This document shows positions 1-34,276 of a stretch of 64,000 nucleotides of DNA, piece after piece. Location: the IMG/VR virus record IMGVR_UViG_3300047160_000603, positions 5,126 to 69,125 of that record. One strand, given 5' to 3'. Under the pieces are notes generated by a model. The model made no database searches and was not told where the DNA came from. It saw only the letters and a list, made by a program, of their open reading frames with translations. This DNA comes from a virus. Its lineage: Duplodnaviria; Caudoviricetes. The stretch's first letter is position 1, and every line of letters begins with the position of its first letter. The position numbers and the translations under genes were made by a program.

Positions 1-1
1 A

Positions 2-1344: not shown

Positions 1345-1364
1345 AGTGTTTAGCTGCCAACCTG

Positions 1365-1559: not shown

Positions 1560-1594
1560 CGTTACTCTCCGTTAGGAATGCTTCCACTTATCTA

Positions 1595-3781: not shown

Positions 3782-3904
3782 ATTCTCCTTGCTGCATCAC
3801 GCAGTAGGTTGTGGAGTTGGTGCTGTTCCACTTCAGTAGGCAACCGTCACGGCTGCTCCCAGCGCCCTCCCCACGAGCAGGAGGGCAGTAGGAGGAGTCG
3901 CTAC

Positions 3905-4126
3905 TTAATCAGAGCCACCACCCTCTCCGCCGACTTCCGGCGTGTCGAGGGTAGCCACTCCGCCACCATCATCGTCGATCTCGTTGGTAGTGAGGTCGTT
4001 AAATACTGCCGGGTTGATGGTGGGTGCATCGTCCGGCATCTGGTTGTTGGTGCGCCGGGTGGCGCAGTTGGCGCGGTGATCTTGCTTGTCGAGGTCTACG
4101 CCACACTTGGGACAGAGTCGAGCCAT
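3905..4126 (-). CDS. Small hypothetical protein (CPKC...HxxxC, acidic tail)
   Basis: AAGGAG upstream of ATG at 4126. Confidence 0.6.
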   Translation of the reverse strand: MARLCPKCGVDLDKQDHRANCATRRTNNQMPDDAPTINPAVFNDLTTNEIDDDGGGVATLDTPEVGGEGGGSD

Positions 4127-4153
4127 TTGATTCTCCTTAATGTGTAGCACCCA

Positions 4154-16337: not shown

Positions 16338-18596
16338 ATGGTAGCCATTAAGACTCAGCCACGACGCACTAATGCAACACAAACGGCAACAGCTACCCAC
16401 CACAAGCGGGTCTTCTCTTTTGATACCGAGACTACCGGGCTGGACTTACGGCACGGTGCCAAACCATACTTTATCATATCGGCTGATGCCGCGGACTCAC
16501 TCTACCCACTCACATGGCAGTGGCGTGTAGACCCATTGACGCGGCAGCCCATCATCCCAAACGGTGATATCGAAGAGATCCATGAGCATCTACGCAGCCT
16601 CGACACCATCGTCCTGCAGAATGCCAAGTTCGACGTTACGGCAATGGCTACGCTCGACGAGGCGTTCGGGCGTCAGTGGCAGTGGGGTAAGACTGAGGAT
16701 ACGCTGCTACTCGCACATCTACTTGCCAGTAATAAGCCGAAGTCACTAGACGTACTCGCGGTGATGTATCTCGGCATCAGCATCAAGTCACTAGAAGACA
16801 AGATGGAAGAGGCAGTCCAGGCGGCTCGACGGTACTGCCGGAGTAGACTTAAGGATTGGCGGATTGCCAAGAAGGGTCTACCAGATATGCCCAGCATGAA
16901 GGAGGAGTGCTGGAAAGCTGACACGTGGTTGCCACGCGCTATCATCTACGAACTGGGCGGTACCGACAAGCTGAGTGAGCACTATGGTGAGGACATGAGT
17001 TGGTGGGAAACGGTCACTGAGGAGTATGCGTGTGCGGATGGTACCATAACCGTCGGACTACTGCCACGCATGATGGATCGTGTGCGGGAACGTAAGCTAG
17101 ACAAGATCTACCAATTACGCCGGAAGTTACTACCCGTCGCCTACGCGATGGAAAGTCGTGGTGTCACGCTTAGCAGTGATAGGCTTAATAAGCTAGAAAC
17201 GGACTACATGGAGGCGAGCGATGCCGCAACACAGATCTGCACTAACATCGCAGCCGGATACGGGCACGAGCTCACCATGCCGAAGGGTGCTAGCGTTAAC
17301 AAGAATCTGCAGGACTTCGTCTTCAACAAGATGAAGCTAACCAAGATCTACAATCCAAAAGCCGGTAAGGGTAAGGATAAGGACTACGAGCCAAACCCTA
17401 CGCTAGATAGCAAGAACGCCATCCCGTATTATCTAGACACGCTCAAGCCCAACAGTAAAGAGCTACTGTTCATCAAGACGCTGGCAGGCAAGCGCAGCCG
17501 CGACACTGCCTGTACCTTCATGCAGATGTATACTCGCTACTGGCAGCCTGTACCAAGCAAGTCTGGATGGTACCGGCTACATCCCAATTTCAAGCCCACA
17601 GCAACCGATACGCTACGCTGGGGCTGTGATAACCCAGCCGTCCAGAACATTAGCAAGAAGGAAAACTTTAACCTCCGGTACTGCTTTGGTCCCGCACCTG
17701 ACCGGGAATGGTGGTCACTCGATGCGAAGAACATCGAGCTCCGGCTACCCTTCTATGAGTCGGGTGAATTGGCACTCATTGACCTATTCGAGCATCCAGA
17801 CGACCCACCATTCTTCGGCAGTAATCACCTACTCAACTTCAGTGTTATCTACCCAGACCTGTGGGCTACCGCAGTCAAGGAAGTAGGTCTGGATAAGGCT
17901 GGTCCATACTGCAAGAAGAAGTACGCAGCCACATGGTATCAGTGGTGTAAGAACGGTAACTTCGCCATCCAGTACGGCGCGGTAGACAAGAGCGATGGTA
18001 CTGGCACAGCGGACCGAGCATTCCATAAGTCGGGTGCACATGCACTGCTTAAGGAACGGTTCAAGAACCTCGAAATCCTCAATAAAGCACAGATAGAGTT
18101 TGCCAACAGACACGGCTACGTGGAGACCATCCCAGACCGTACCGTGGACCCAGAACGTGGCTACCCACTACTATGTACTCGCACGGAGTACGGCAAGATC
18201 CTAGAGACCGTGCCACTTAGCTACCGTGTGCAAGGGTCCGCGATGTGGTGGACAGGCAAAGCACAGATACGCTGCCAAGCCAAGCTAGATGAGTGGCAGG
18301 GTATAGGAGGCTTCGACGGGTTTATCTGTATGCAGGTCCACGACGAGATGGTGTTCGACTTCCCACGTAGTATCATAGACCCACGCATCCACATGGAGTA
18401 CATCAAGAAAGGTAAGCCCATTCCACTGTTCCAACGTTACAAGAGCAACCTGTGGCGGATACAGATCCTTGCTAGACTAATGGCTCAGGGTGGTACAGAC
18501 TTCATCCTACCGAACTGTCCGCGCGGTATACCTACACCTGTCGGCGTCGAATATCACACTGAGTCCTGGAGTGAAGGAGTGACCCTTGCCATCTGA
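16338..18596 (+). CDS. polA: Family A DNA polymerase with 3'-5' exonuclease
   Basis: FDTETTGL, QNAKFD, SLDAKNIELRL, KNGNFAIQYG, QVHDEM. Confidence 0.93.
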   Translation: MVAIKTQPRRTNATQTATATHHKRVFSFDTETTGLDLRHGAKPYFIISADAADSLYPLTWQWRVDPLTRQPIIPNGDIEEIHEHLRSLDTIVLQNAKFDVTAMATLDEAFGRQWQWGKTEDTLLLAHLLASNKPKSLDVLAVMYLGISIKSLEDKMEEAVQAARRYCRSRLKDWRIAKKGLPDMPSMKEECWKADTWLPRAIIYELGGTDKLSEHYGEDMSWWETVTEEYACADGTITVGLLPRMMDRVRERKLDKIYQLRRKLLPVAYAMESRGVTLSSDRLNKLETDYMEASDAATQICTNIAAGYGHELTMPKGASVNKNLQDFVFNKMKLTKIYNPKAGKGKDKDYEPNPTLDSKNAIPYYLDTLKPNSKELLFIKTLAGKRSRDTACTFMQMYTRYWQPVPSKSGWYRLHPNFKPTATDTLRWGCDNPAVQNISKKENFNLRYCFGPAPDREWWSLDAKNIELRLPFYESGELALIDLFEHPDDPPFFGSNHLLNFSVIYPDLWATAVKEVGLDKAGPYCKKKYAATWYQWCKNGNFAIQYGAVDKSDGTGTADRAFHKSGAHALLKERFKNLEILNKAQIEFANRHGYVETIPDRTVDPERGYPLLCTRTEYGKILETVPLSYRVQGSAMWWTGKAQIRCQAKLDEWQGIGGFDGFICMQVHDEMVFDFPRSIIDPRIHMEYIKKGKPIPLFQRYKSNLWRIQILARLMAQGGTDFILPNCPRGIPTPVGVEYHTESWSEGVTLAI

Positions 18597-18913: not shown

Positions 18914-19216
18914 ATGGCTAAGGAATCATACCCCAAGTACCCGATCGGGTCTTACGTGATCGTCGGTGCTGAACCCGGACCGTGGGAAAGCAGTGGGGAA
19001 GATGAGGAGGACATTGCTGCACTCGTTGGGCACGTTGGGGTTGTAGTCGAAGTGAGTGATATGGAAGACGATGAAGGTGTGAACGACCCCATGCACCTCA
19101 TACGATTCCCTGACCGCAACGATGAACGTACTGGTCAGCGCAACATTGAGTCATCGTGCCTCGGGTTCATCTGTAACCCCAACCAACCACTAACTGCCCA
19201 CATATTCGAGAGCTAA
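18914..19216 (+). CDS. Acidic hypothetical protein (KOW/SH3-like pattern)
   Basis: IGSYVIV...VGHVGVVVEV; RBS GGAGG. Confidence 0.55.
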   Translation: MAKESYPKYPIGSYVIVGAEPGPWESSGEDEEDIAALVGHVGVVVEVSDMEDDEGVNDPMHLIRFPDRNDERTGQRNIESSCLGFICNPNQPLTAHIFES

Positions 19217-19217
19217 C

Positions 19218-20147
19218 ATGAAGATCACAGACGTCAGCAAGCTGCCACCACTCGAACGGTTCCTGTACTGGTGCAAGGCGCGCCACGAGATCCACGTCAA
19301 GCGGGTTAACCTAGAGTTACCGCGCCCATGGACCGACGACGAGGTGCTCCGCAGCTACTTCTTCACCAACCCGTACCGGGAGAACGACAAGACTACAGTA
19401 TGGTTCCGGGAGAACATCCGCGAGCGGTTACGGAACGAGGACGAGGTGCTGATGGCAACCGTAATCTTCCGCTGGTTTAACCTCATTGAGACTGGATACA
19501 CCCTACTCGGTGATGCCAACCACGACGACCTGACCGTACTGTGGAACGAAAGGACTGCGGTGGCTCGGCTACAGAGTATGTGGGGCGACGGACGCACGCC
19601 AGTCTTCACTGGCGCGTACATGATCAAGGCGGGTAACGGTGAGCGTGGCTGCAAGATCCCCAACGTATGCAAGGCCATTACGCGCGTCTGGCACGAACGG
19701 GACCGGCTGCTGCATATCTGTAAGAGTGATTGCAGATTAGAAGCACTGTGGGAGTCGCTGACTAGGTTCGACCATCTGGGTGGGTTCATGGCATACGAGA
19801 TTGTCTGTGACCTACGCTACACGTACCTATTGGATGAGGCGACCGACGTAGATACATGGGCTAATCCCGGACCCGGCTGCCTGCGCGGGCTGCTACGCTT
19901 GGAGGGTGGTAAGATACCCATGAAAGACAACGGTAGACCCAATCGCAACGCCAGCGTGAAGAACCCACTGCCGAAGATGGTAGACCTACTGGCAGTCTGC
20001 CGTGAGAGGCTGAAGGGTATGCCTCGGTTTGAACTGCGAGAGGTTGAGCACAGCCTCTGCGAGTGGGATAAGTACGAGCGAGCCAGGACTGGTGAGGGTG
20101 GTAGGATGAAGCGTGTCTTCAACGGGGAGTACGAAGATGGTGATTGA
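19218..20147 (+). CDS. 5-hmdU DNA kinase-like (aGPT-Pplase1 family)
   Basis: PWTDDEVLRSYFFTNPYRENDK, LGGFMAYEIVCDL, NPGPGCLRGL, EVEHSLCEWDKY. Confidence 0.85.
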   Translation: MKITDVSKLPPLERFLYWCKARHEIHVKRVNLELPRPWTDDEVLRSYFFTNPYRENDKTTVWFRENIRERLRNEDEVLMATVIFRWFNLIETGYTLLGDANHDDLTVLWNERTAVARLQSMWGDGRTPVFTGAYMIKAGNGERGCKIPNVCKAITRVWHERDRLLHICKSDCRLEALWESLTRFDHLGGFMAYEIVCDLRYTYLLDEATDVDTWANPGPGCLRGLLRLEGGKIPMKDNGRPNRNASVKNPLPKMVDLLAVCRERLKGMPRFELREVEHSLCEWDKYERARTGEGGRMKRVFNGEYEDGD

Positions 20148-20712
20148 CATCCGCGGTACGCACGGCTCCGGTAAGAGCTGGCTCATGCACCAGTTAATCA
20201 GCTACGGCGCTGACGAGGTGACTGGAACGTGTCACTATACTCATAAGGACAAGGTGCTCGGCTACGTGCTGCCAGACTGGGACGCCTTCATCCTTGGGAA
20301 ATACTCCAACGTCTGTGGAGGCTGTGACCAGATTGGTAGTGCGGACGAAGTAGTGCGTCGTATCCGCGAGTTCAGCCAGCAGTACACGCACATCATCCTT
20401 GAAGGGATACTGGTGGCGCACACCTACCAACGGTATGCGGATCTTGCCGTGGAGATGCAGGACTACGGGTATATCTTTTGCTTCCTGGACACACCGCTGG
20501 AGACCTGCATCGAGCGAGTTAAGCAGCGTCGAGCGAATGCAGGTAATGATAAGCCACTCAACCCAGCCAACATCATCAAGGATTACCGCAACATCTGGAC
20601 CACAGTGCGCCACAAGGTCTATGCAGCCGGGCTGAACGCGATTGACGTGCCACACACTGACCCACTAGGACCTATCATCGACTTACTCGACAAGGTGACT
20701 ACCTTTGAATAA
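20137..20712 (+). CDS. P-loop nucleotide kinase, likely hmdUMP kinase
   Basis: IDIRGTHGSGKS, GGCD, IILEG; position in the cluster. Confidence 0.75.
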   Translation: MVIDIRGTHGSGKSWLMHQLISYGADEVTGTCHYTHKDKVLGYVLPDWDAFILGKYSNVCGGCDQIGSADEVVRRIREFSQQYTHIILEGILVAHTYQRYADLAVEMQDYGYIFCFLDTPLETCIERVKQRRANAGNDKPLNPANIIKDYRNIWTTVRHKVYAAGLNAIDVPHTDPLGPIIDLLDKVTTFE

Positions 20713-20980
20713 TCCATTCACCAAACATCCGCGTGAGGTTGGTATGAACTACGTCACGCACATGTTGTGGGCTTGTACCATCGGTACCATGATGATCTTC
20801 GCCGGTCTCTGTTGCCTCGTGCACGCCATCTGCCCGTTCCTATTTACACGCACTGCTTCCAATATGGTTGAAGACTTGCACTATGTCCTCTTTCCCCAGA
20901 AGGCCAATTATGGTACTAATCCCCAGCAAGAAGACAGTCATAAGCAAGCCAGCGATAAGCCAGAGTCTGGAACTCCCTGA
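20705..20980 (+). CDS. DUF6356-like small membrane protein
   Basis: FTKHPREVGMNY..H...AG..LVHAICPFLFTRTAS. Confidence 0.6.
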   Translation: MNNPFTKHPREVGMNYVTHMLWACTIGTMMIFAGLCCLVHAICPFLFTRTASNMVEDLHYVLFPQKANYGTNPQQEDSHKQASDKPESGTP

Positions 20981-21725
20981 CGGGTACCAGCAATGGGACT
21001 GGTACAAAGAGGGTGTCAACCCGAACGGCGTCTGGCTCAACAGTGTCAACGCGATGACAGAGGCACTGCAGCAACATGAACAGGATGATGTCTACCTGTA
21101 CACTCAGCACGAGATTTTCTACGACGGTGGCGTCATCAAGCAAACCCGATCCACGCCGAACTGGGAAGGCGGATTGGTGACGTTCTGCAACTGCAAGCAC
21201 AACATGCGAACGTACCAGCGTGACACATGGGTCGGTGCGTGGTTGGTGGGTCTATGCCCGAAAGAGTGTGAAGATAATACCATGCTCTTCGCTGGCCGGA
21301 TTGATCGTGCGTTCGATTCGCACTACGGGTTGAGTCATATGGTGTATCGTGACTATCCGCAGGTTGCATTACACAAGCTAGCCCATACGAATCCACGTGG
21401 TGATCTGTACATACCAAAGCATGGGTTTAACCTCGCCAGTAGTGGCAGACGGTATCACCACAATACGTACATCGAGCCGGTCAACCACTGCCGCGCGGTT
21501 GAGACATACCGCAAGTCACCAGGATCAACTATGCGTGCGGATGGCACCGTGCCGAAGTGGTGGCGTGACCTGGAGTACCTGCAACGGGGGATACGTCCGC
21601 AGGTATTTATACTGCAACCGTGTTACCTATTCAGTAAGCCCATGCTGTGGACCAGTAGGCAGCCCAAACGTGCTGTAATGCGTCTTACAGTAGGCGAACT
21701 GGCTCGAACGGTATATAAAGGGTGA
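20910..21725 (+). CDS. Nucleotide-modification-associated domain 2 (Nmad2)-like protein
   Basis: YDGG.....STPNWEGGLVTFCNCKHNMR resembles the Nmad2 D.G.APN...TLA.CKP.IR pattern. Confidence 0.6.
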   Translation: MVLIPSKKTVISKPAISQSLELPDGYQQWDWYKEGVNPNGVWLNSVNAMTEALQQHEQDDVYLYTQHEIFYDGGVIKQTRSTPNWEGGLVTFCNCKHNMRTYQRDTWVGAWLVGLCPKECEDNTMLFAGRIDRAFDSHYGLSHMVYRDYPQVALHKLAHTNPRGDLYIPKHGFNLASSGRRYHHNTYIEPVNHCRAVETYRKSPGSTMRADGTVPKWWRDLEYLQRGIRPQVFILQPCYLFSKPMLWTSRQPKRAVMRLTVGELARTVYKG

Positions 21726-21774
21726 TGCAGGCTAGAACGTGCAGTGGTGGCGTCGCTAGACATGTTAAAACACA

Positions 21775-21799
21775 AACGCCACCCTGACTGGGTGGCGTT
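21775..21799. terminator. Terminator hairpin between convergent genes
   Basis: AACGCCACCC-TGACT-GGGTGGCGTT. Confidence 0.7.
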
Positions 21800-21824
21800 A
21801 GGCGGGTCGGGCGTGTGGTACGGG

Positions 21825-22196
21825 TTACTTCTTGGCGTTTTCCAGGGCTTTCTTACCTTTTGCGGTAATCGTGTACACAAGCCCGCGGATCCCTTCTACA
21901 TCATCGCTGGTCACCAACCCGTCGCCTTCCAGCGTACCTTCGGCCGCATCGCCTTGCGTCACCGCACCCAGCATCTTTGCCCAGCCTTTGACGATGCCGG
22001 TCTTCTCGGCCAGTTGCGCACGAGTCAGGCCATCTTTGGCCTTGTTCAGCGTTTCGAGCGTCAGGATCTTGTTCCCGCTCAAACCGCGTTCTTTGACGGA
22101 TGCCGGTTCAGCCTTCGTGGGTGCTGCGGCTGCCTTCTTGGTGGCCTTCGCGATGGTGGTCTTGGTGCTGTTGGCCTTGTTGGTTTGCTTCGCCAT
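21825..22196 (-). CDS. Ala/Lys-rich winged-helix-like protein, paralog of 8033-8893
   Basis: Shared AKDGL.R..L..KTG..KGW.K.LGA.T.G...GDGL...Y.IT..G; RBS CACAAGGAG. Confidence 0.7.
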   Translation of the reverse strand: MAKQTNKANSTKTTIAKATKKAAAAPTKAEPASVKERGLSGNKILTLETLNKAKDGLTRAQLAEKTGIVKGWAKMLGAVTQGDAAEGTLEGDGLVTSDDVEGIRGLVYTITAKGKKALENAKK

Positions 22197-22256
22197 GATC
22201 GAGCTCCTTGTGTGCTGGGCTAGCGGGTCTTTGCGTTGCACTGTGCACCGCGTTTT

Positions 22257-22276
22257 CGTTTACCACACTAACCCAA
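22257..22276 (-). promoter_or_regulatory. Second copy of the leftward promoter core
   Basis: CGTTTACCACAC..WCCCAA on plus, as at 9838-9857. Confidence 0.45.
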
Positions 22277-22413
22277 CACCTTCACTCTAACACCACCCCC
22301 ATCCGAGAGCAAGGACTGTTTGGCGTTTTGCACCAAGTATTTTCCAGCGTCTGTAGTAATATGTGTACTGGTTCGCTTCAAATCCGAGGTCTAAACCTGC
22401 TCGGACTATTTTC

Positions 22414-23013
22414 ATGATCAAGACAATTTTGCTAGATATGGACGATGTGCTCGTGGACTTCACGGGAGCCTACTGCAAGCTTATTGGTGTCGACGAGCGG
22501 GCTGTACGTGCAGCCTGGACGCCTGCAACCGGCTGGCATATGGGAACAGCCCTAACCACAGTGATGAGGCTGCACGCACCACTGAGCCTCGAGCAGTTCT
22601 GGGCACCACTGCAAGGGGACGTTGAGTTCTGGGAGAAGCTACAACCGCTACCGTGGTTCCACGACTTAATTGCGATGGTGTACCAATTCACAGATGACAT
22701 CTGGGTGGTAAGCAGCCCCAGTGAGTGTGATAGTAGTTATACTGGAAAGGTACGTTGGCTCAAGCGTGTGTTTGGACGTTCGTTCACACACTTCCACTTG
22801 ACACCGCATAAAGAACGCCTTGCGACACCGGGTAGCGTGCTGATCGATGACCGTGAAGAGACCGTGGTGAAGTTCCAGAATGCGTGCTCGCGAATCCACG
22901 CAGGCAGATCGTACGGCATCACGTTCCCACAGAATTACAATAGCCTGTACGCTTTGACAGGCACACCGAAGCAGCGTCTTGACTACGTTCGTAGATCGTT
23001 GGCTGCAATCTAA
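22414..23013 (+). CDS. HAD-family 5'(3')-deoxyribonucleotidase (NT5C-like)
   Basis: LLDMDDVLVDF, VVSSP, GKVRW, LIDD. Confidence 0.85.
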   Translation: MIKTILLDMDDVLVDFTGAYCKLIGVDERAVRAAWTPATGWHMGTALTTVMRLHAPLSLEQFWAPLQGDVEFWEKLQPLPWFHDLIAMVYQFTDDIWVVSSPSECDSSYTGKVRWLKRVFGRSFTHFHLTPHKERLATPGSVLIDDREETVVKFQNACSRIHAGRSYGITFPQNYNSLYALTGTPKQRLDYVRRSLAAI

Positions 23014-23028
23014 CCTCAAGGAGACCTC

Positions 23029-24294
23029 ATGCACCTGACAACTCGTAATGTCAACTCAGCGTTCCGTGAGTTGGTGAAACTATTTGACCGTGGCTCACGA
23101 TGGGCAGGTGGCGATAGCTACGTGCACACGAACAGAGGCATAGTCAAGGCCACCATCACACAGCGTAATAGCCGCAACGGTCCTGTTCTGCTGATCGACG
23201 AACCAGTGACCATCACGTACACGCATCCTCGTGAACGAGTATTGTTCAACGCGGCACGTGATGCCAATCCGTTCTTCCACTTGTATGAGGCTCTGTGGAT
23301 GCTGGCTGGGCGAAACGACGTCGCGTCCGTTGCCCACTACGCCAAGCAGATGAAGGATTACAGCGACGATGGTGTTACGCTTAATGGAGCGTATGGCTAT
23401 CGGTGGCGACACCAGAAGGGTGAACAGATTCTCAGCCGCTATATGAAGAATGGTCCAGGTTATGACGATTGGGAGAACATAGACCAACTCGACGTCTTGG
23501 TGAACCATCTCAAGGCGGACCATAACTCGCGCCGCGCTGTGCTACAGATGTGGAATGTCGAGGATGACCTCCTGAGGATCGGTGGTAAGTGCATCTGTGG
23601 TGCTGATCGAACTGGACCATCAGCAGAAGCACACGATGTTGATTGCCCAGCGCAGCGCCAAGCATCCAAGGATACGTGTTGTAACCTGTCCGTAATGTTT
23701 AGCATCCGTGAGCAAGTCGTCCATCCAGACGCCGGTCCCATTGCACAAGCACAGTTCAACAAGCGATGTCTGGACATGACTGTGACCAACCGCAGCAACG
23801 ACTTGATCTGGGGTCTACTTGGTGCCAACTACGTACACTTTAGTTTCCTTCAGGAGTATATGGCTGCACGGATCGGCGTGGAAGTTGGCAAGTACCACCA
23901 CTTCACCAATAACCTCCATGTCTACACAGAAACGAACAGTGGCTTCCACCCGGAGAAGTGGTTAGGCCAGAACGACTGCAATTGGCACGAGGAGGGGGAT
24001 GACCTTTACCATTATTCCGAGTATGACGTGAAGACCACAGTGCCACTCATCAACAAGCCTGAAGTATTCGAGAATGAGATGCTAGAGTTTGTTAACAACA
24101 ACGATGGTCGCACGCGGACGCTACGGTTGCACTACAAGGAGCCCTTCCTAGATACAGTGGCACAGCCTGCAATGGATGCGATGTACTGCCACAAGGAAGG
24201 CAATACAGATGAAGCACTGACACACGCCAGTATGATCGCCGCGGACGATTGGCGTATCGCCTGCCAACGCTGGCTTGAACGGAGGAAAAAGTGA
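23029..24294 (+). CDS. Thymidylate synthase-like dUMP hydroxymethylase
   Basis: RDANPFFHLYEALWMLAGRND, SRRAVLQMW, KDTCCN, NRSNDLIWG..GAN (Asn favours dUMP), YHHFTNNLHVY. Confidence 0.85.
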   Translation: MHLTTRNVNSAFRELVKLFDRGSRWAGGDSYVHTNRGIVKATITQRNSRNGPVLLIDEPVTITYTHPRERVLFNAARDANPFFHLYEALWMLAGRNDVASVAHYAKQMKDYSDDGVTLNGAYGYRWRHQKGEQILSRYMKNGPGYDDWENIDQLDVLVNHLKADHNSRRAVLQMWNVEDDLLRIGGKCICGADRTGPSAEAHDVDCPAQRQASKDTCCNLSVMFSIREQVVHPDAGPIAQAQFNKRCLDMTVTNRSNDLIWGLLGANYVHFSFLQEYMAARIGVEVGKYHHFTNNLHVYTETNSGFHPEKWLGQNDCNWHEEGDDLYHYSEYDVKTTVPLINKPEVFENEMLEFVNNNDGRTRTLRLHYKEPFLDTVAQPAMDAMYCHKEGNTDEALTHASMIAADDWRIACQRWLERRKK

Positions 24295-24908
24295 TGGATA
24301 TGGACCACAATGAAAGGGCGGAAGAGATCATGTACCCACCACCAGTGCTGACGAAACAGGACTTTGTCAAGCGGTATGCAGCCGGTGAGTTTGGCAATGC
24401 AAGCCCCACATGGCAGACGTTCGAGCAGTTCAGCAAGGATGTGTCGTGGCACCACAAGCAGCAGCAATTCCATCTGCGGAATCGTGTGGCTGCCGGTGAG
24501 ACCCACTACAACCTATCCGCCACTGAAGTGCTGCGACAGTGGGGTGATGACAAGAATGGTCCGTGGTACTGTTCCGCAATGGCACCAGAGGATCGCAAGA
24601 TATTCCAAGGTGAAGTGATTGAGCATCCAGCGACCGGCATCCAACTCCACTACAACCTGCATGCAATACCGATGCGTGACGGAATGGCTGCGGAATACGC
24701 TACATCCGGCTACCAGAAACGTATGAACGTTGATGGTCCGCGTGTCTACTGGTACCTACGAACGTTCTTATGTGCCAATAGTTACGAATGGCTAATGATC
24801 CTACTCGACCGCTACCCCAACCACGCAGTCGAGTTCAGCAGTTACGCTACTAACTGGGGCACCATCTCCGGTTTCAACACCGTCTTCTGGGAAGTCCGGA
24901 AATATTAA
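24291..24908 (+). CDS. Hypothetical protein in the modification cluster
   Basis: Coupled start/stop with the hydroxymethylase; no family recognised. Confidence 0.7.
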   Translation: MMDMDHNERAEEIMYPPPVLTKQDFVKRYAAGEFGNASPTWQTFEQFSKDVSWHHKQQQFHLRNRVAAGETHYNLSATEVLRQWGDDKNGPWYCSAMAPEDRKIFQGEVIEHPATGIQLHYNLHAIPMRDGMAAEYATSGYQKRMNVDGPRVYWYLRTFLCANSYEWLMILLDRYPNHAVEFSSYATNWGTISGFNTVFWEVRKY

Positions 24909-24942
24909 CCTGTCCCTACCATCGCCCACTCAAGGATAAAGT

Positions 24943-25755
24943 ATGAACCCGACCGATTATCAGCAACTTGCGGCACGCACCGAGTGTGTGCAGGCAACCA
25001 GCCGTCACCGGATGTACACCGACAACCAAGACCACGCGCGGATCTTCTACCCCAACGACCACCCGATCTGTAAGCCCATCCGCTTCAACCACTCGATCAT
25101 CGGCATGTGCGGTGAAGTGGGTGAGATCTTCGCGCTGTTGAACCAATCCGTAGACTCCATGGCAGCCATGACACAGGCGGAACAGGTTAGCTGCCGAATG
25201 CACTTCAACATGGAGTTTGGTGACCTGCTGTGGTACATGGCCGAGGGTATGAACGCACTGAGTATGGACGCCACCACGATCTTCGTGTATTCCACGCTAC
25301 ATCAACTACCGAACGTCGGACGCCTCGACCAGCTCAAGTACGTCCTAACCAACATCGCGAAAGTGGTGGGCTTACTTGCGTCTGAATTGCAGCGGTGGAT
25401 TTACTACGGTAAGTACGAGCCAAGTGCCACGAACAATCAGGGCGATGCAAAGTTCATTGAGAATGTGGTCTACCTGTTCCGTGATCTGGCTGGCTGGGTA
25501 CAGGCAGCATTGGGCCTACTCGACATGAAGCTTGACCGAGTGATGACAAGCAACATCGAGAAACTGAGGGCACGCTACCCAGACAAGTATAGCGACCACC
25601 ACGCCGCTGACGAGAATCGGGACCGTACCAAGGAAGAGGAGGCTGCAGTCAAGATGACCGCGTTCACCGAACAGTACAGTCGCAATACCCAGCCGGACGT
25701 TAACCGTACCGGGTACGAAAAGCTCGGTGGTGAAAGTGGTACCGGCGAAACATAA
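24943..25755 (+). CDS. MazG-like nucleoside triphosphate pyrophosphohydrolase
   Basis: GMCGEVGE, EFGDLLWY, NIEKLRARYP. Confidence 0.8.
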   Translation: MNPTDYQQLAARTECVQATSRHRMYTDNQDHARIFYPNDHPICKPIRFNHSIIGMCGEVGEIFALLNQSVDSMAAMTQAEQVSCRMHFNMEFGDLLWYMAEGMNALSMDATTIFVYSTLHQLPNVGRLDQLKYVLTNIAKVVGLLASELQRWIYYGKYEPSATNNQGDAKFIENVVYLFRDLAGWVQAALGLLDMKLDRVMTSNIEKLRARYPDKYSDHHAADENRDRTKEEEAAVKMTAFTEQYSRNTQPDVNRTGYEKLGGESGTGET

Positions 25756-25854
25756 AGCTAGCTATCTATGGTATGATGATGAGCTTCCGCGCACGGTGGC
25801 CTCACAGCTACCGTGTGTTATTTTCTTCCAGAAGATCCAACAGGAGACTAAAGC

Positions 25855-28110
25855 GTGCCACCACTACCACCTAAGTTCAGTAAGGTTACACCACCACAGA
25901 AGACACGTGTGATTGACCTACCACCGAAGCTGAAGGCTTACGGATTCCACGGTGTGGAGATCGAATACAAGTCCAACCAGACACAGGCACAAGGCATCTG
26001 CCCACTGTGCAATAGTGCCAAGTTCTACGCGTCTGTGGACACCGGGATGTGGGACTGTAAGAGTTGCGGCAGGCGCGGTAACGTCTACACGTTCTTGCGG
26101 CACTTATACGAGATGAGCAGTGCCTCCACCATTGCTACTGACTACAGCCAACTCGTGACGAACCGCAAGCTACTGTCGGCTGACACGTTGGTGAAGTGGG
26201 GTGTGGTTAAGAGCGCGTTGACTGGTGACTGGTTGGTGGCTGGGTACGGCATCGATGGGAAACTCAATAACCTGTACAAGTACGCACCAGCCCCAGATAA
26301 CGCCAGCAAGATGATCCTACACGTTACACCGGGTCTCAACCACCAATTGCACGGATTGGATCAGTTTGACCCACGCAAGCCGAATGTGCACATCTGCGAG
26401 GGTCCGTGGGATGGTATGGCATGGTGGGAGCTACTGCGGCAAGCCAAGCGTACAGATACCGGGCTGGCAATGACTACCAACGAGGAGATTAGCCTACTCG
26501 CTGACACCAATGTGATCGCTGTACCGGGCTGCAATGTGTTCCCTGAGACATGGACAGAGCTCTTCGCCGGTAAGAACGTATCATTCCTCTACGACAGTGA
26601 CCACCCTAAGAAAGTAGAAGACCGTACCAATCCACCCGCAGGATGGTCTGGTATGCGCCGTGCCTGTGAGACACTTATTGGATCAGAGCAGCAGCCCGCA
26701 ATCCTACAGGCGATTCTCTGGGGGAAGGATGGATATGACCCCAAGCTGCCCAGTGGTTACGACGTGCGCGATGCGGTGACAAGCGTGGGTGTCATGATTC
26801 CGCACAGGCTGGCAGCCGTGGACAAGCTACTGAAGAAGCTTGAGCCAATCCCTACAGACTGGGTGGCGTCACGCAGTGCTAGCAGCAAGAAGACAGGTAA
26901 GACAGAGATCGAACTGATTGACTGTGAGTCGTGGGCAGACTTACAGTCGGAGTGGGTCAATACAATGCAATGGCATGAAGGGCTGGAGACGTCGTTTCTG
27001 GTGATGCTGGCGTGTGTGACCTCAACCATGCTGCCAGACAGTCAACTGTGGTGTAAGATCATTGGTCCACCGAGTTGTGGTAAGACCACGCTCGTGGAGG
27101 CTATTGCAGTCAATAAGAAGTACACCATTAGCCGCAGCACCATCCGCGGGTTCCACAGTGGGTACAAGGCGGAGGACGGTGAGGACGTGTCGCTTGCGGC
27201 AATGGTCAACACGCGCACACTACTTACCAAAGACGGTGACACGCTGTTGCAGGCACCCAACCTCGGGCAGATCCTTGCGGAGGCACGGGACATCTATGAC
27301 GGGGCATTCCGCACCCATTACCGTAACGGTAAGCAGACAGAGAATGAGAACGTTCGCATGACGTGGATCATCTGCGGCACCGAGAGTATGCGGGAGATTG
27401 ACAGTAGTGAACTCGGCGAGCGATTCCTGGACTGCGTGGTTATGGACGGTATCAACGACGAGCTCGAAGACGAGGTACTGTGGTCCGTAGTGAACCGTGC
27501 AGACCGCAATATGAGCACGCTCGGACAGGACAACCGCACAGACGACAATCGTATGCGTGCCATACAGATGACCGGCGGGTATGTGAAGTATCTGCGGGAG
27601 AATGCGTTCGACCTACTGGCACAGGTACAGTCGGGCGAGGACTCACTCAAGCAGATCATACGCATGGGTAAGTTCGTAGCCTTTATGCGTGCCAGACCAA
27701 GCGGTAACACCACTGCAGAGACAGCCACGCGCGAGTTCGGTGCACGGCTGGTTGAGCAGCACCTACGCTTAGCGAAGTGTCTAGCAGTGGTGATGAACAA
27801 GACCAGTCTCGACGCCGAGGTGCTAGCCAAAGTTAAGAAGGTCAGCATGGACACGTCACGCGGTCTATGCCTGGATATATCTAAGTATCTGTTCAAAGCC
27901 GGTACGGAAGGCCACACTCACAAGACCCTTGCCAAGATCATTAACCAAAAAGATGTACGTACCGAGGAGCTACTGCGGTTTATGCGTGCCATTGGTGCGG
28001 TTGAGTTCTACATCGGTAAGCAGGGGACCAATATGCACGGTCAGGTACGCTGGCGGCTGACGGCTAAAATGGCGTCGCTGTACAGTGCGGTCGGTGCACC
28101 ACAGTTATAG
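25855..28110 (+). CDS. Primase-helicase (zinc finger, Toprim, AAA+)
   Basis: CPLC...CKSC, ICEGPWD, YDSD, GPPSCGKTT, ERFL. Confidence 0.8.
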   Translation: MPPLPPKFSKVTPPQKTRVIDLPPKLKAYGFHGVEIEYKSNQTQAQGICPLCNSAKFYASVDTGMWDCKSCGRRGNVYTFLRHLYEMSSASTIATDYSQLVTNRKLLSADTLVKWGVVKSALTGDWLVAGYGIDGKLNNLYKYAPAPDNASKMILHVTPGLNHQLHGLDQFDPRKPNVHICEGPWDGMAWWELLRQAKRTDTGLAMTTNEEISLLADTNVIAVPGCNVFPETWTELFAGKNVSFLYDSDHPKKVEDRTNPPAGWSGMRRACETLIGSEQQPAILQAILWGKDGYDPKLPSGYDVRDAVTSVGVMIPHRLAAVDKLLKKLEPIPTDWVASRSASSKKTGKTEIELIDCESWADLQSEWVNTMQWHEGLETSFLVMLACVTSTMLPDSQLWCKIIGPPSCGKTTLVEAIAVNKKYTISRSTIRGFHSGYKAEDGEDVSLAAMVNTRTLLTKDGDTLLQAPNLGQILAEARDIYDGAFRTHYRNGKQTENENVRMTWIICGTESMREIDSSELGERFLDCVVMDGINDELEDEVLWSVVNRADRNMSTLGQDNRTDDNRMRAIQMTGGYVKYLRENAFDLLAQVQSGEDSLKQIIRMGKFVAFMRARPSGNTTAETATREFGARLVEQHLRLAKCLAVVMNKTSLDAEVLAKVKKVSMDTSRGLCLDISKYLFKAGTEGHTHKTLAKIINQKDVRTEELLRFMRAIGAVEFYIGKQGTNMHGQVRWRLTAKMASLYSAVGAPQL

Positions 28111-31989: not shown

Positions 31990-32502
31990 ATGTCCCTGAT
32001 CCGCAACTTACCCCCAGCCGTGTTCGAGCAGTTGAAGCGTGGTCCACTGGCAAGCCGTGGCTACAACGGTGTGATGATTGACGAATTTGTGGTGGACTGG
32101 CCGAACGGTAACAAGAAGATGATCTGGGTGCTGAAAGGCCACATCTTCAGCCTCATAGATAGTGCAGGCAACCAAGTACCACTGTTCCACGCTGAGTACA
32201 AGGGCAGCCCGGACGGTGAGCAGGTTGCACGGCAGCGTCTACAGTTACTGTGGGAACAGAACACCAAGATGGCAAATGGTACACCACTGTTCAACTTTAC
32301 AGAGTGTCACCTCGCGGACCCGTTCGAGCGTATTAGCAAGAAGCTACGCGACACGGAGTTCCTCAAGATCATTGCCACCTACGATCCGGAGAACAAGGCG
32401 CTGCAGAACGCCATTATGGCTGTGAAGATGCTGGGGTTACTAGCGAACTACGACGTCGTTAATGACGCACCCACACAGCCACCAGTACCCACCAGCCACT
32501 AG
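31990..32502 (+). CDS. Hypothetical protein
   Basis: RBS GAGGAG. Confidence 0.6.
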   Translation: MSLIRNLPPAVFEQLKRGPLASRGYNGVMIDEFVVDWPNGNKKMIWVLKGHIFSLIDSAGNQVPLFHAEYKGSPDGEQVARQRLQLLWEQNTKMANGTPLFNFTECHLADPFERISKKLRDTEFLKIIATYDPENKALQNAIMAVKMLGLLANYDVVNDAPTQPPVPTSH

Positions 32503-32533
32503 CTTACCTTTCCTCCAGAAGACCGGTTATAGG

Positions 32534-34276
32534 ATGAGCCTGATACAGGATCTGCAGGACTACGCACTTGTAGATCCTATGAAGCTGAAGGCGTTCTTAT
32601 GGCCGGATGTCTACTTCTACCGCGAACAACGTCGTATCATCTATAGCACCTGGGATAACGACCAGACGTTCGTGCCTGCTGGCAACATGCTCGGCAAAGA
32701 CTTCACTGCTGGGTTTATTGCCATCGGTGCGTTCATAACGCGGTACCCATGTCGCATCGTTACCACCAGTGCCAAGGAGGATCACCTGCGTGTGCTATGG
32801 GGTGAGATGCTGCGATACGTCCGCACATGCAAGTACAGCCTCGATGTCCGCAAGGGTGGTCCACTGCTGTTGAAGCATCAGGAGATCGAGCGTATCGTTG
32901 ACGGTGAGAAGTGCCCACTGTCATATATCCGTGGCATGGTGGCCAGTGACGCGACAGAGGCTGCCATGCAGGGTCACCACTGTGCTAAGAGTGGTCACAG
33001 ACCGGTAGGTAATGGCAAGGTCACGCCAGATGGAGTGTGGCGCACGTTGTTCATTGCTGACGAGTGTAGTAGCGTGCCACACAACTACTGGCGGCTCGCT
33101 GGCACATGGGCACACCGCATGCTCGCTATCGGCAACACGTGGCCTTGCGACAACTTCTTCAAGCACGCTATTAAGGGGCGTCCCGGCCACAAGTACCGGC
33201 ACCCGCTCACAGGGGAAGATGTAGTAGATCGAGGCGGCGACATTGCAAGGCCACACAAGCAATCCGATTGTACCGCGTGGTCCACTGGTGTAGGCATACA
33301 GCCTATTGACTGCCCAGAGGCTCTAACGAGCTCGCAGGACGCACCGAAAGGGTACATACGCAAGATTATACACATCCGCGCCACAGACTCGCCTAACGTA
33401 CGCAGGGGGCTTGCACAGCAGGCACGGGGTACGGAGCCAGATGGTAAGGTCGTAGTACCGGGCATAAAGGACTGGCAAACGTACCAGCAGAACCTGATCA
33501 TGCTCGACGAGGAAGAGCAATGCGTAAGCCTGAACGCGGACTTCTATGAAGGTGTAGCCATCAAGCTATTCCCGGACGCATGGCTTACACGTGCGGAACA
33601 CTTGGCAAGCAGGCTGCGCAGCAACGGCATCAAGCGAGTCGCACGTGCTATTGGCATTGACCCAGCAGAAGGCGGTGACAAGAGTGCATGGTGTGTGGTA
33701 GACGAATACGGCGTTATCGAACTACTATCCATGAAGACACCTGACACTGATGTGATACCCAGTACTACCATCGCACTGATGATACGGTATGGTGTCAAGG
33801 CAGAGAACGTCATGTTCGATCGTAGTCCCGGTAAGGCACACGCGGATCGTATGCGTGCAGCCGGATACAACGTACGGACAGTAGGGTTCGGTGAGGCAGT
33901 CACGCCAGATCCACGTCGGAACATGCACGTGCCACATACGATGAAGATCGACCAGCGGGAACAACGGTACGCTTATCTCAATCGCAGAGCCGAGATGTAT
34001 GGTGAACTCTCGGAGCTACTGAACCCAGCCGGTGACGGATTCGCACTACCGTTGTGGTACCCTGCACTGCGGATGCAATTGGCACCAATTCCCCGGCAAT
34101 TTGATTCTGAGGGTAGAATGCGTCTACCACCCAAGAACCGCAAAGAATCTGCAAGTAGTAAGACAGTCTGTCTCGTAGACTTAATCGGCCACAGTCCTGA
34201 CGAGGCAGATGCTCTGGTATTGGCAGTCCACGCTATGACCCACAAGGCACCCGTGAACCGTGCGGGCGTAGCGTGA
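32534..34276 (+). CDS. terL: Terminase large subunit
   Basis: VPAGNMLGKDF, LFIADECS, AIGNT, GIDPAEGGD, SPDEADAL. Confidence 0.85.
   Translation: MSLIQDLQDYALVDPMKLKAFLWPDVYFYREQRRIIYSTWDNDQTFVPAGNMLGKDFTAGFIAIGAFITRYPCRIVTTSAKEDHLRVLWGEMLRYVRTCKYSLDVRKGGPLLLKHQEIERIVDGEKCPLSYIRGMVASDATEAAMQGHHCAKSGHRPVGNGKVTPDGVWRTLFIADECSSVPHNYWRLAGTWAHRMLAIGNTWPCDNFFKHAIKGRPGHKYRHPLTGEDVVDRGGDIARPHKQSDCTAWSTGVGIQPIDCPEALTSSQDAPKGYIRKIIHIRATDSPNVRRGLAQQARGTEPDGKVVVPGIKDWQTYQQNLIMLDEEEQCVSLNADFYEGVAIKLFPDAWLTRAEHLASRLRSNGIKRVARAIGIDPAEGGDKSAWCVVDEYGVIELLSMKTPDTDVIPSTTIALMIRYGVKAENVMFDRSPGKAHADRMRAAGYNVRTVGFGEAVTPDPRRNMHVPHTMKIDQREQRYAYLNRRAEMYGELSELLNPAGDGFALPLWYPALRMQLAPIPRQFDSEGRMRLPPKNRKESASSKTVCLVDLIGHSPDEADALVLAVHAMTHKAPVNRAGVA

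What the first reader, a model, noticed from the sequence alone, without database searches (positions are those of the whole stretch)
19218..25755. Thymidine-hypermodification cluster with no recognisable amino-acid:DNA transferase
Seen: 5-hmdU DNA kinase-like, P-loop kinase, Nmad2-like, HAD nucleotidase, dUMP hydroxymethylase-like (Asn at the specificity position) and MazG-like genes between polA and the primase. Established: in ViI, M6 and phiW-14-type phages hmdU is incorporated, phosphorylated on DNA by this kinase family, then displaced by a nucleophile via an aGPT-Pplase2-type transferase, with PLP, radical-SAM or FAD tailoring. I see no such transferase or tailoring enzyme here. Inference: the final base may be phosphomethyl-dU or a new derivative installed by the Nmad2-like protein, ORF 24291 or the sugar genes.
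Basis: partly seen in the sequence, partly recalled or inferred. Interest (0 to 1): 0.75.

Follow-up and report, generated by a model that had tools for sequence, protein, structure and literature searches.

The report
Thymine-modification genes lacking the usual transferase
An uncultured soil phage has the genes to put hydroxymethyl-uracil into its DNA and phosphorylate it, but lacks the usual enzyme for the next step. An uncharacterised Nmad2-family protein sits in that enzyme's place, so the DNA probably carries a thymine modification nobody has described.

Summary
The genome is complete (69,125 bp, terminal repeat). It has no match to the amino-acid:DNA transferase family (PF18724, ADDT/aGPT-Pplase2), to aGPT-Pplase3, TAGT, radical SAM or PALP.

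It is the all-helical clade-1 paralog of that transferase (PF18723). Its best fold match is PaMx11 gp46, and it keeps an EVExxLCxW motif like the one holding ADDT's catalytic cysteine.
- The real kinase is 20113-20712.
- ORF 20910-21725 is a divergent Nmad2-family protein with a PUA-like fold. Cys, His and Asp residues are invariant across the superfamily.
- This ORF lies beside the kinase and PF18723 gene in every relative examined, in three gene orders. Among 22 kinase-bearing loci it never occurs together with ADDT (8 with Nmad2-like, 8 with ADDT, 0 with both).

Best reading (about 45%): the Nmad2-like protein takes ADDT's place and acts on 5-phosphomethyl-dU. Main rival: the PF18723 paralog does.

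ORF 24291 and the sugar genes are unlikely players. The same four-gene core, plus a TIR protein, forms the E. coli defence system DS-4. The scan has noted DS-4 relatives and similar phage clusters on other DNA. I class this as a new variant of a known kind; the chemistry is unknown.

The parts
18914..19216 (+). 100-aa acidic ORF of unknown function directly upstream of the PF18723 gene
   Evidence: No Pfam, PHROG or NCBIfam match. A 44%-identical homolog sits in the same position in L018.
19218..20147 (+). PF18723 protein (HMUDK_hel, formerly aGPT-Pplase clade 1). It is an all-helical HhH-type paralog of the amino-acid:DNA transferase, not a kinase.
   Evidence: PF18723 8.4e-45, 153.7 bits. 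Homolog of M6 gp55 and PaMx11 gp50. AF2 pLDDT 91.9, all helical. Top VIA match is PaMx11 gp46/PUGT 8z2n: Z 11.2, rmsd 4.2, 225 aligned. C281, E282 and K285 are invariant. The motif is present in 93/93 family ORFs.
20113..20712 (+). P-loop kinase of the 5-hmdU DNA kinase family
   Evidence: PF18748 7e-10, 39.2 bits against cut-off 27. 32% identical to PaMx11 gp49 (5e-24) and 30% to M6 gp54. Walker-type G15, G18, G20 and K21 are invariant.
20705..20980 (+). DUF6356 small hydrophobic protein; overlaps both neighbouring genes
   Evidence: PF19883 3.2e-24. A DUF6356 gene also lies beside the module in L009 and in the P0049 contig.
20910..21725 (+). Divergent Nmad2-family protein (P0001, 271 aa). 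It occupies the post-kinase slot that ADDT occupies in other loci.
   Evidence: 64 homolog clusters. 17/33 relatives hit PF18753. A family profile reaches members above the Nmad2 cut-off. AF2 pLDDT 92.9. Weak PUA-like fold matches, Z up to 5.7. P83, N84, G87, C95, R100, G164, D165, P190, H193 and D220 are invariant across the superfamily.
21775..21799 (-). Terminator-like hairpin downstream of the minus-strand gene; also closes the upstream + operon
   Evidence: 10-bp stem with 7 GC pairs, followed by a T-rich tail (sequence).
21825..22196 (-). 123-aa Lys/Ala-rich protein on the opposite strand, probably DNA-binding (inference); conserved at this position in relatives
   Evidence: ATG with AAGGAG 7 nt upstream. 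Homologs on the minus strand at the same place in L005, L006, L008, L010, L011 and L019, with a weak match in L018.
22363..23013 (+). NT5C/HAD-type 5'-deoxyribonucleotidase; probably removes dTMP (inference)
   Evidence: PF06941 3e-05, 24.4 bits against cut-off 24.8; phrog_2643 1.1e-13.
23029..24294 (+). Thymidylate-synthase-fold dUMP hydroxymethylase-like enzyme
   Evidence: PF00303 6e-19; phrog_5131 2.3e-98. Best PDB relative is MilA CMP hydroxymethylase, 1.4e-12, with Asn267 opposite MilA's Asp. C218, N219 and N267 are invariant with M6 gp58 and PaMx11 gp51. It scores far below the NCBIfam ThyA cut-offs.
24291..24908 (+). ORF-Y, 205 aa, unknown function; a general companion of the TS-like gene
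   Evidence: No family match. Homologs at 38-47% identity follow the TS-like gene in ADDT-type, Nmad2-type and third-type loci.
24943..25755 (+). MazG-like NTP pyrophosphatase; probably a dTTP/dUTP-clearing enzyme (inference)
   Evidence: phrog_229 1.3e-21. Relatives carry PF03819 MazG at the same position.
25789..25818 (+). Terminator-like hairpin ending the second sub-operon
   Evidence: 12-bp stem with 7 GC pairs, followed by a T-rich tail.

Best explanation
This is a complete, kinase-dependent thymidine-hypermodification pathway of a type that has not been characterised.

Before replication (inferred from the families): the TS-fold enzyme converts dUMP to 5-hydroxymethyl-dUMP. The NT5C-like nucleotidase and the MazG-like pyrophosphatase deplete thymidine nucleotides. 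The phage PolA then incorporates hmdU in place of T.

After replication (inferred by homology to M6 gp54 and PaMx11 gp49): the P-loop kinase phosphorylates hmdU in DNA, giving 5-phosphomethyl-dU.

Next step (inference only): in all characterised phages a PF18724 amino-acid/diamine:DNA transferase does this. Here I propose that the Nmad2-family protein (20910-21725) does it. The proposal is that it flips the phosphorylated base into a PUA-like pocket. It would then use its invariant Cys95 (with His193, Asp165 and Asp220) to displace or transform the phosphate ester. The result would be a thymine derivative of unknown structure.

The PF18723 protein (19218-20147) is a constant companion whose role is unresolved.
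For: 1. The genome is complete: 87-bp terminal repeat and CheckV 100%. It has no PF18724 at E<=10, and no aGPT-Pplase3, TAGT, radical SAM or PALP. Complete genomes G001 and G002, which carry the same module, also lack PF18724.
2. The pre-replicative enzymes and the kinase are homologous to those of M6 and PaMx11. The chemistry of those phages was reconstituted in vitro (PMC8989533).
3. The Nmad2-like gene is adjacent to the kinase and the PF18723 gene in every relative examined, mostly with overlapping stop and start codons. Three gene orders occur: hel-kin-nmad, hel-nmad-kin, and hel-kin-DUF6356-nmad.
4. Among 22 kinase-bearing loci, 8 have Nmad2-like, 8 have ADDT, 0 have both and 6 have other unknown genes in the same slot. 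After removing duplicate contigs, the hypergeometric chance of no overlap is about 0.007 (my own arithmetic). The loci are phylogenetically related and were fetched by different routes, so this figure is indicative only.
5. Across the Nmad2 superfamily (37 sequences down to 22% identity) the invariant residues are Cys, His, two Asp and Arg, with a near-invariant Lys. That pattern suits an active site. R80, R163, R195 and K216 are invariant only in the phage clade. They could bind the phosphate (inference).
6. The confident model (pLDDT 92.9) matches almost only PUA-like domains that hold flipped modified bases: ASCH, YTH, EVE, McrB-N, VcaM4I and PD-T4-3.
Against: - There is no biochemical data for any Nmad2 protein.
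- The fold matches are weak (Z 5.7 at best, Foldseek E>=0.14). PUA-like domains are more often readers than enzymes.
- In the bacterial DS-4 system, Nmad2 is encoded beside a TIR protein. That pairing fits a sensor or reader at least as well as an enzyme.
- The cluster also holds an ADDT paralog (PF18723) with an ADDT-like cysteine motif, which could do the transfer instead.
- M6 carries another Nmad family protein (Nmad5, gp56) next to gp55. It was not among the proteins used to reconstitute the M6 chemistry in PMC8989533.
- The mutual-exclusivity sample is small and not independent.
- ADDT genes can lie far from the kinase, as in ViI. Flank-limited loci could therefore miss one.
Confidence: 0.45

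Rival explanations
1. The PF18723 protein (19218-20147), a paralog of the amino-acid:DNA transferase, carries out the group transfer on 5-phosphomethyl-dU using Cys281. The Nmad2-like protein would then be an accessory, for example a reader or specificity factor for the modified base, or a tailoring hydrolase acting on the installed group.
For: - The best structural match of the model is PaMx11 gp46/PUGT (Z 11.2, rmsd 4.2, 225 residues; Foldseek prob 1.00).
- BLASTP and hhalign both align EVEHSLCEW (275-283) with M6 gp51's EVETVLCKW, putting C281 on its Cys247. Q240, E241, E243, T244, C247, K248 and W249 are invariant in my eight-sequence ADDT alignment, which includes gp51 and PaMx11 gp46.
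- Cys247 is the proposed catalytic nucleophile of PaMx11 gp46 (PMC11472151). Mutating the conserved Cys, or the Glu next to it, abolished activity in M6 gp51 and ViI gp247 (PMC8989533).
- The motif is present in 93/93 PF18723 ORFs.
- PF18723 is the constant gene next to the TS-like gene across very different clusters, including clusters without a kinase.
Against: - M6 gp55, the PF18723 homolog, was dispensable for the in-vitro reaction. Kinase plus ADDT were sufficient (PMC8989533).
- PF18723 coexists with ADDT in M6, PaMx11 and six IMG/VR loci, so it is not simply an alternative to ADDT.
- The profile-level relation to ADDT is not significant: hhalign probability under 1% over 17 columns, and the profile finds no PUGT hit in the PDB.
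- Z scores for other HhH glycosylase-like folds are within 1 unit of the PUGT score.
Confidence: 0.25
2. No group transfer occurs. The final base is hmdU or 5-phosphomethyl-dU, and the Nmad2-like protein only binds or protects that base. It could also act as a decoy against TIR-Nmad2 (DS-4-type) host defences.
For: - No transferase or tailoring family was found in the genome.
- The fold matches are to reader domains.
- Nmad2 is encoded beside a TIR protein in the validated defence system DS-4.
Against: - In every characterised system 5-PmdU is a reactive intermediate, not an end product (PMC8989533, PMC13458397).
- The slot next to the kinase holds an enzyme (ADDT) in the characterised clusters and varies like a cassette.
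- Cys, His and Asp are invariant across the superfamily.
Confidence: 0.12
3. The sugar-nucleotide and glycosyltransferase cluster that spans the genome ends glycosylates hmdU, or a derivative of it, in DNA. That would supply the missing chemistry.
For: - The genome encodes UDP-sugar dehydrogenase-like, GT1, GT_1_2, methyltransferase, GNAT and DegT proteins.
- A phage with the same backbone (L012) has TAGT, a GT_1_2-like protein and a radical SAM enzyme next to its PF18723 gene.
Against: - The own genome has no TAGT.
- Its GT_1_2 protein is unrelated to the one in L012.
- Complete genome G002 has the kinase/Nmad2-like module but neither DegT nor GT_1_2.
- The cluster lies next to the tail genes, about 20 kb from the modification genes, which fits virion or host-surface glycosylation (inference).
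Confidence: 0.06

Closest known systems
Pseudomonas phages M6 and PaMx11 (also ViI, PhiW-14, SH-Ab 15599): kinase-dependent thymidine hypermodification
   Same: They share a TS-fold dUMP hydroxymethylase (46-48% identical in the alignment), a P-loop 5-hmdU DNA kinase (30-32%), and a PF18723 gene next to the kinase (34-42%). The genes lie close to PolA and the primase gene in both.
   Different: This genome has no PF18724 transferase (M6 gp51, PaMx11 gp46). It has no PLP, radical-SAM or FAD enzyme and no acetyltransferase in the cluster. A Nmad2-family gene and a DUF6356 gene sit next to the kinase instead.
E. coli anti-phage system DS-4 ('NTTI'), DefensePredictor, Science 2026 (PMC13092281)
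   Same: It has the same four-gene core: TS-like, small P-loop kinase, PF18723 and Nmad2.
   Different: DS-4 is a bacterial, mobile-element-borne system and includes a TIR protein. This phage genome has no TIR_2 match. Here the genes sit in the replication module together with nucleotide-pool enzymes. The phage Nmad2-like clade is too divergent to hit PF18753 directly. The mechanism of DS-4 is unknown.
Nmad2 (PF18753) of bacterial genomic islands, paired with Nmad3
   Same: The Cys, His, Asp and Arg core is shared. A profile built from the phage clade finds members above the Pfam cut-off.
   Different: The canonical members seen here sit next to Nmad3 and integrase or resolvase genes, not next to a kinase. 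The own genome has no Nmad3.
PaMx11 gp46 / PUGT (PDB 8z2n), the solved amino-acid:DNA transferase
   Same: It is the best structural match of the PF18723 protein (Z 11.2). The two share the EVExxLCxW motif around the cysteine.
   Different: They belong to different Pfam families, with no significant profile match. The M6 homolog of the PF18723 protein was not needed for transfer in vitro (PMC8989533).

Membership tests
Kinase-dependent thymidine hypermodification pathway (M6/ViI/PaMx11/PhiW-14 type) | TS-fold dUMP hydroxymethylase with uracil-type Asn | tested here: met
   PF00303 6e-19. 46-48% identical to M6 gp58 and PaMx11 gp51 in the alignment. Asn267 lies opposite MilA's Asp. Far below the ThyA equivalog cut-offs. 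Enzyme activity was not tested.
Kinase-dependent thymidine hypermodification pathway (M6/ViI/PaMx11/PhiW-14 type) | P-loop 5-hmdU DNA kinase | tested here: met
   PF18748 39.2 bits against cut-off 27. Homologous to PaMx11 gp49 (5e-24) and M6 gp54.
Kinase-dependent thymidine hypermodification pathway (M6/ViI/PaMx11/PhiW-14 type) | PF18724 amino-acid/diamine:DNA transferase (ADDT, aGPT-Pplase2) | tested here: not met
   A six-frame search of the complete genome found no match at E<=10. The positive controls M6 gp51 and PaMx11 gp46 score 1e-46 and 2e-27.
Kinase-dependent thymidine hypermodification pathway (M6/ViI/PaMx11/PhiW-14 type) | Tailoring enzyme (PLP decarboxylase, radical SAM, FAD lyase) in the cluster | tested here: not met
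   No Radical_SAM or PALP match in the genome. No such family among the cluster ORFs. The only PLP enzyme is DegT in the sugar cluster. FAD families were not searched genome-wide.
Kinase-dependent thymidine hypermodification pathway (M6/ViI/PaMx11/PhiW-14 type) | Hypermodified thymidine present in virion DNA | not testable with these tools
   The phage is uncultured. Only assembled contigs from soil metagenomes hold it.
Nmad2 (PF18753) | Direct match of the protein to the Pfam model above its cut-off | tested here: not met
   No family at E<=0.01 by hmmscan. No match at E<=10 in the six-frame search.
Nmad2 (PF18753) | Transitive homology and a shared conserved core | tested here: met
   17/33 close relatives hit PF18753, best 6e-6. 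The family profile finds 316 proteins at 1e-10, and five of ten that were sampled score above the Nmad2 cut-off. The nearest ESM Atlas clusters carry Nmad2. Cys, His, Asp and Arg are shared as invariant residues.
HMUDK_hel / aGPT-Pplase clade 1 (PF18723) | Match above the cut-off over the full length | tested here: met
   153.7 bits against cut-off 25, covering profile positions 5-277 of 281.
ADDT (PF18724), as a home for the 19218-20147 protein | Sequence-profile match | tested here: not met
   No PF18724 hit. hhalign probability under 1%.
ADDT (PF18724), as a home for the 19218-20147 protein | Same fold, with the catalytic Cys and Glu in the same helix | tested here: inconclusive
   PUGT is the top VIA match (Z 11.2), but it is tied within 1 Z unit with DUF2419 and archaeal Ogg. 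The Cys motif aligns locally at E 0.02 and 0.17.
DS-4 (NTTI) anti-phage system | TS-like + P-loop kinase + PF18723 + Nmad2 | tested here: met
   All four are present. The DS-4 composition comes from the supplements of PMC13092281.
DS-4 (NTTI) anti-phage system | TIR-domain protein in the operon | tested here: not met
   No TIR_2 (PF13676) match in the genome at E<=1. Other TIR families were not searched.

The most novel reading that the evidence does not exclude
Nmad2-family proteins would be a second, structurally unrelated class of enzymes that act on phosphorylated hydroxymethyl-uracil in DNA, using a PUA-like fold and a Cys-His-Asp site. They would install a thymine modification not yet described. 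The slot next to the 5-hmdU DNA kinase would be an exchangeable cassette, holding ADDT, Nmad2-like or at least two further unknown families, and that cassette would diversify phage DNA chemistry. If true, this would also give a biochemical handle on the unexplained E. coli defence system DS-4.
Probability: 0.35. Interest if true: 0.85.

Novelty: new variant of a known kind. Interest (0 to 1): 0.62.

Why it matters
In every thymidine hypermodification pathway solved so far (M6, ViI, PaMx11, PhiW-14, SH-Ab 15599), one enzyme family, PF18724, acts after the kinase. This work shows a recurrent set of uncultured phages, including three complete genomes, that keep the kinase but lack that family. 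They always carry a Nmad2-family protein instead.

This points to an undescribed DNA base, and to an enzyme activity for a family that has had only a placeholder name since 2013 (the date is from my own knowledge).

The same four genes form the core of DS-4, an experimentally validated E. coli defence system of unknown mechanism. Solving the phage enzyme would therefore probably shed light on that system too.

New DNA-modifying enzymes of this kind have also been useful as tools for labelling and sequencing modified bases.

Tried and rejected
- **Complex prediction.** PF18723 protein, kinase and Nmad2-like protein as three chains gave no verdict (score 0.00). It says nothing either way.
- **Megablast of the cluster against phage records:** no match.
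- **tblastn of three Nmad2 representatives** (P0001, P0197, P0240) against 50,697 phage records: no match. No cultured phage offers chemistry for comparison.
- **The 604-aa ORF at 32462-34276** has no match in phage records. PolA has only three weak matches, so host and taxonomy remain unknown.
- **Nmad2-like against M6 gp56 (Nmad5):** no relation by hhalign.
- **Nmad2-like against the Cys-rich 264-aa protein** in the same slot of L011: no relation.
- **PF18723 profile against PDB sequences:** only a weak MutY hit, and PUGT was not found.
- **Own GT_1_2 protein against the GT_1_2-like protein of L012:** unrelated.
- **ORF-Y:** Pfam, PHROG, NCBIfam and the ESM Atlas gave nothing usable.
- **Sequencing runs:** only assembled contigs from soil metagenomes hold the stretch, and no RNA holder is listed. 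Read laying was not run, because contigs cannot show base modification.
- **Iyer et al. 2013 (PMC3763556),** which named the Nmad and aGPT-Pplase families, is not held in the library. Statements about it rest on my own knowledge and on citations in PMC8989533.
- **IMG/VR scan with the Nmad2-like alignment:** only three loci returned. The co-occurrence sample is therefore small.

Full report
**Setting.** The window is bases 5126-69125 of a 69,125-bp IMG/VR virus record. CheckV rates it 100% complete and it has an 87-bp direct terminal repeat. Only 5.1 kb lies outside the window, and I fetched and annotated that part. The DNA occurs in soil metagenomes from 2019. No cultured phage is close: megablast of the cluster finds nothing, and PolA has only three weak tblastn hits.

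**What is at the coordinates.** Between PolA (16338-18596) and a primase-like gene (25855-28110) lie two + strand sub-operons. A minus-strand gene and a hairpin separate them.

Sub-operon 1:
- 18914-19216: unknown, 100 aa.
- 19218-20147: PF18723, 153.7 bits.
- 20113-20712: P-loop kinase, PF18748, 39.2 bits against a cut-off of 27.
- 20705-20980: DUF6356, 3e-24.
- 20910-21725: no direct family match.

The opposite strand carries a 123-aa Lys/Ala-rich gene (21825-22196) with AAGGAG 7 nt upstream of its ATG and a terminator-like hairpin at 21775-21799. Homologs of this gene sit at the same place, also on the minus strand, in six related loci.

Sub-operon 2:
- 22363-23013: NT5C-like nucleotidase.
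- 23029-24294: TS-fold enzyme.
- 24291-24908: ORF-Y.
- 24943-25755: MazG-like.
- 25789-25818: terminator-like hairpin.

**The pre-replicative half is conventional.** The TS-fold protein is 46-48% identical to M6 gp58 and PaMx11 gp51 in a multiple alignment. It shares their invariant Cys218-Asn219 and the RSND..WG..GAN motif. Its best solved relative is the CMP hydroxymethylase MilA (1.4e-12), ahead of classical thymidylate synthases, and Asn267 aligns with MilA's cytosine-specifying Asp. It scores far below NCBIfam's ThyA cut-offs. Activity itself is inferred. The roles I give to the nucleotidase and MazG, namely thymidine-nucleotide exclusion, are also inferred, by analogy with PMC13458397.

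**The gene labelled "5-hmdU DNA kinase-like" is not a kinase.** Pfam now calls PF18723 "HMUDK_hel". One JGI record still names a member [quoted passage not shown]. The gene is the homolog of M6 gp55 and PaMx11 gp50. The experimentally proven transferases, M6 gp51 and PaMx11 gp46, instead match PF18724 "ADDT" (PMC8989533).

The AF2 model is all-helical (pLDDT 91.9). Its best VIA match is the PaMx11 gp46/PUGT crystal structure (Z 11.2, rmsd 4.2 Å, 225 residues). Other HhH glycosylase-like folds score within one Z unit.

BLASTP and hhalign both pick out one short shared motif. EVEHSLCEW (275-283) aligns with EVETVLCKW of M6 gp51, placing Cys281 on Cys247. Cys247 is the proposed nucleophile of PaMx11 gp46 (PMC11472151). 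The conserved Cys and its neighbouring Glu are essential in M6 gp51 and ViI gp247 (PMC8989533). All 93 PF18723 ORFs I collected keep [ED]x[EQ]xx[LF]CE.

However, M6 gp55 was dispensable in vitro (PMC8989533). PF18723 also coexists with ADDT in eight loci. It further occurs in many clusters without any P-loop kinase. In 54 of the 80 IMG/VR loci it sits between a methyltransferase-like gene and the TS-like gene. In L012 it sits with a TET-associated glycosyltransferase and a radical SAM enzyme. Its function is therefore general and unresolved.

**The canonical transferase really is absent.** Six-frame HMM searches of the whole genome found:
- no PF18724 at E<=10;
- no aGPT-Pplase3;
- no TAGT;
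- no Radical_SAM;
- no PALP.

Pfam scans of about 58 ORFs, covering the early and replication regions and the sugar cluster, gave no other candidate.

**ORF 20910-21725 is a divergent Nmad2 protein.** On its own it matches nothing. The family-level evidence is:
- It has 64 homolog clusters at 40-63% identity.
- 17 of 33 of these hit PF18753.
- A profile of the family finds 316 proteins at E<=1e-10, and five of the ten I sampled score above the Nmad2 cut-off.
- The nearest ESM Atlas clusters carry Nmad2.

The model is confident (pLDDT 92.9). Its fold matches are weak (Z up to 5.7) but almost all are PUA-like domains that hold flipped modified bases: ASCH, YTH, EVE/THYN1, McrB-N, VcaM4I and PD-T4-3.

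Across 37 superfamily members, down to 22% identity, the invariant residues are Pro83, Asn84, Gly87, Cys95, Arg100, Gly164, Asp165, Pro190, His193 and Asp220. The phage clade adds invariant Arg80, Arg163, Arg195 and Lys216.

**Context evidence.** In every relative I could inspect, the PF18723 gene, the kinase and the Nmad2-like gene are adjacent. Most have overlapping stop and start codons, and three different gene orders occur. A DUF6356 gene joins them in three loci. Complete genomes G001 (73.8 kb) and G002 (68.5 kb, terminal repeat) carry the module and also lack PF18724.

Among 22 kinase-bearing loci, 8 have Nmad2-like, 8 have ADDT and none has both. The other 6 have further unknown genes in the slot. 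One of these is a Cys-rich family of about 260 aa that is unrelated to Nmad2-like. The gene next to the kinase thus behaves as an exchangeable cassette. In the characterised cases that cassette is the enzyme that consumes 5-phosphomethyl-dU.

This is the main argument for the Nmad2-like protein as ADDT's functional replacement. The argument rests on position and co-occurrence, the sample is small and not independent, and no Nmad2 biochemistry exists.

ORF-Y homologs follow the TS-like gene in ADDT-type, Nmad2-type and third-type loci alike. ORF-Y is therefore a general companion and not the missing step.

The sugar genes form a cluster across the genome ends: UGD-like, GT1, GT_1_2, methyltransferase, GNAT and DegT. 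G002 has the modification module without DegT or GT_1_2. The own genome has no TAGT. Its GT_1_2 is unrelated to the GT_1_2-like gene inside L012's modification cluster. DNA glycosylation is therefore not excluded but is unlikely.

**Comparison with what is known.** Compared with M6 and PaMx11, the hydroxymethylase, kinase and PF18723 gene are shared. The transferase and tailoring enzymes are not.

The four-gene core (TS-like, small kinase, PF18723, Nmad2) is also the core of DS-4 ('NTTI'). DS-4 is a five-gene E. coli anti-phage system validated in 2026 whose mechanism is unknown. It adds a TIR protein (PMC13092281 and supplements). This genome has no TIR_2 match and no Nmad3.

Earlier notes of this scan describe DS-4 relatives in bacteria, where they read Nmad2 as a reader paired with TIR. 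They also describe at least two other phage windows with a kinase but no transferase. I treat these as leads. They raise the weight of the "reader" rival but do not decide it.

**Verdict.** The cluster is real, and the absence of the canonical transferase is real and genome-wide.
- Most likely (0.45): the Nmad2-family protein acts on 5-phosphomethyl-dU and installs an undescribed group.
- Main rival (0.25): the PF18723 paralog does so, and Nmad2 is an accessory.
- Less likely: 5-PmdU or hmdU is the end product (0.12), or the sugar genes contribute (0.06).

I class it as a new variant of a known kind. The association of Nmad2 with such genes was already implied by the family's name and by DS-4. 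Its substitution for ADDT in complete phage genomes, and the cassette behaviour of the post-kinase slot, have not been described in the papers I could search.

Noticed in passing
L018-L097 (IMG/VR loci), e.g. L079:9129-9980, L068:6971-7552, L078:8653-9144: PF18723 is mostly found without the P-loop kinase. In 54 of 80 loci a SAM-methyltransferase-like gene lies directly upstream and the TS-like gene downstream. A 2OG-Fe(II) oxygenase and a Pyr_excise-like glycosylase are nearby. The Pfam name 'kinase helical domain' looks like a misnomer.
   Followed up: partly
L011:9677-10471, L018:11521-12297, L019:11677-12471: A Cys-rich family of about 260 aa (GLCG..YHGHP.GC.NF...CPP) occupies the post-kinase slot in the phages whose PF18723 gene is closest to this one (59% identical). 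It has no Pfam match and no hhalign link to Nmad2-like. L020 and L021 carry yet other unknowns there (320, 259 and 526 aa).
   Followed up: partly
L012:8001-11874: A phage with the same replication backbone has PF18723, a TET-associated glycosyltransferase (PF20691), a GT_1_2-like gene and a radical SAM/SPASM enzyme, with no kinase gene called in that stretch. This suggests glycosylated hmdU in that phage.
   Followed up: no
window 62292-64000, continuing to G000 1-5098, and window 148-1212: A nine-gene sugar cluster spans the circular junction: UDP-sugar dehydrogenase-like, unknown, GT1, GT_1_2, SAM methyltransferase, unknown, GNAT-like, unknown, DegT aminotransferase. It lies next to the tail genes and is not conserved with the modification module.
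   Followed up: partly
window 23029-24294 (about residues 187-215 of the protein): The TS-like enzyme carries a Cys-rich insertion (CICG...C), and a second insertion near residues 130-150. L005 has a CxxC...CxxC insertion at the first site. M6 and PaMx11 have neither.
   Followed up: no
window 11353-12051: A stand-alone UDG-superfamily gene (PF03167, 2.7e-15) lies in the replication region. A 2026 paper (PMC13697223) describes UDG fused to PolA in phages with T-modified genomes. Here the UDG is encoded separately.
   Followed up: no
window 24943-25755: The MazG-like protein (270 aa) matches the roughly 178-aa MazG proteins of relatives in two overlapping segments (residues 1-114 and 130-234). 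This suggests an internal insertion or a partial duplication.
   Followed up: no
window 20705-20980: A DUF6356 small hydrophobic protein recurs beside the kinase/Nmad2-like genes in three otherwise different phage loci: here, in L009 and in the P0049 contig. Its role is unknown.
   Followed up: partly
L016:6001-7327, L017:1137-2616: Canonical Nmad2 genes in bacterial contigs are followed directly by an Nmad3 gene. In L016 the pair lies next to integrase and resolvase genes, so it looks like a two-gene island module.
   Followed up: no
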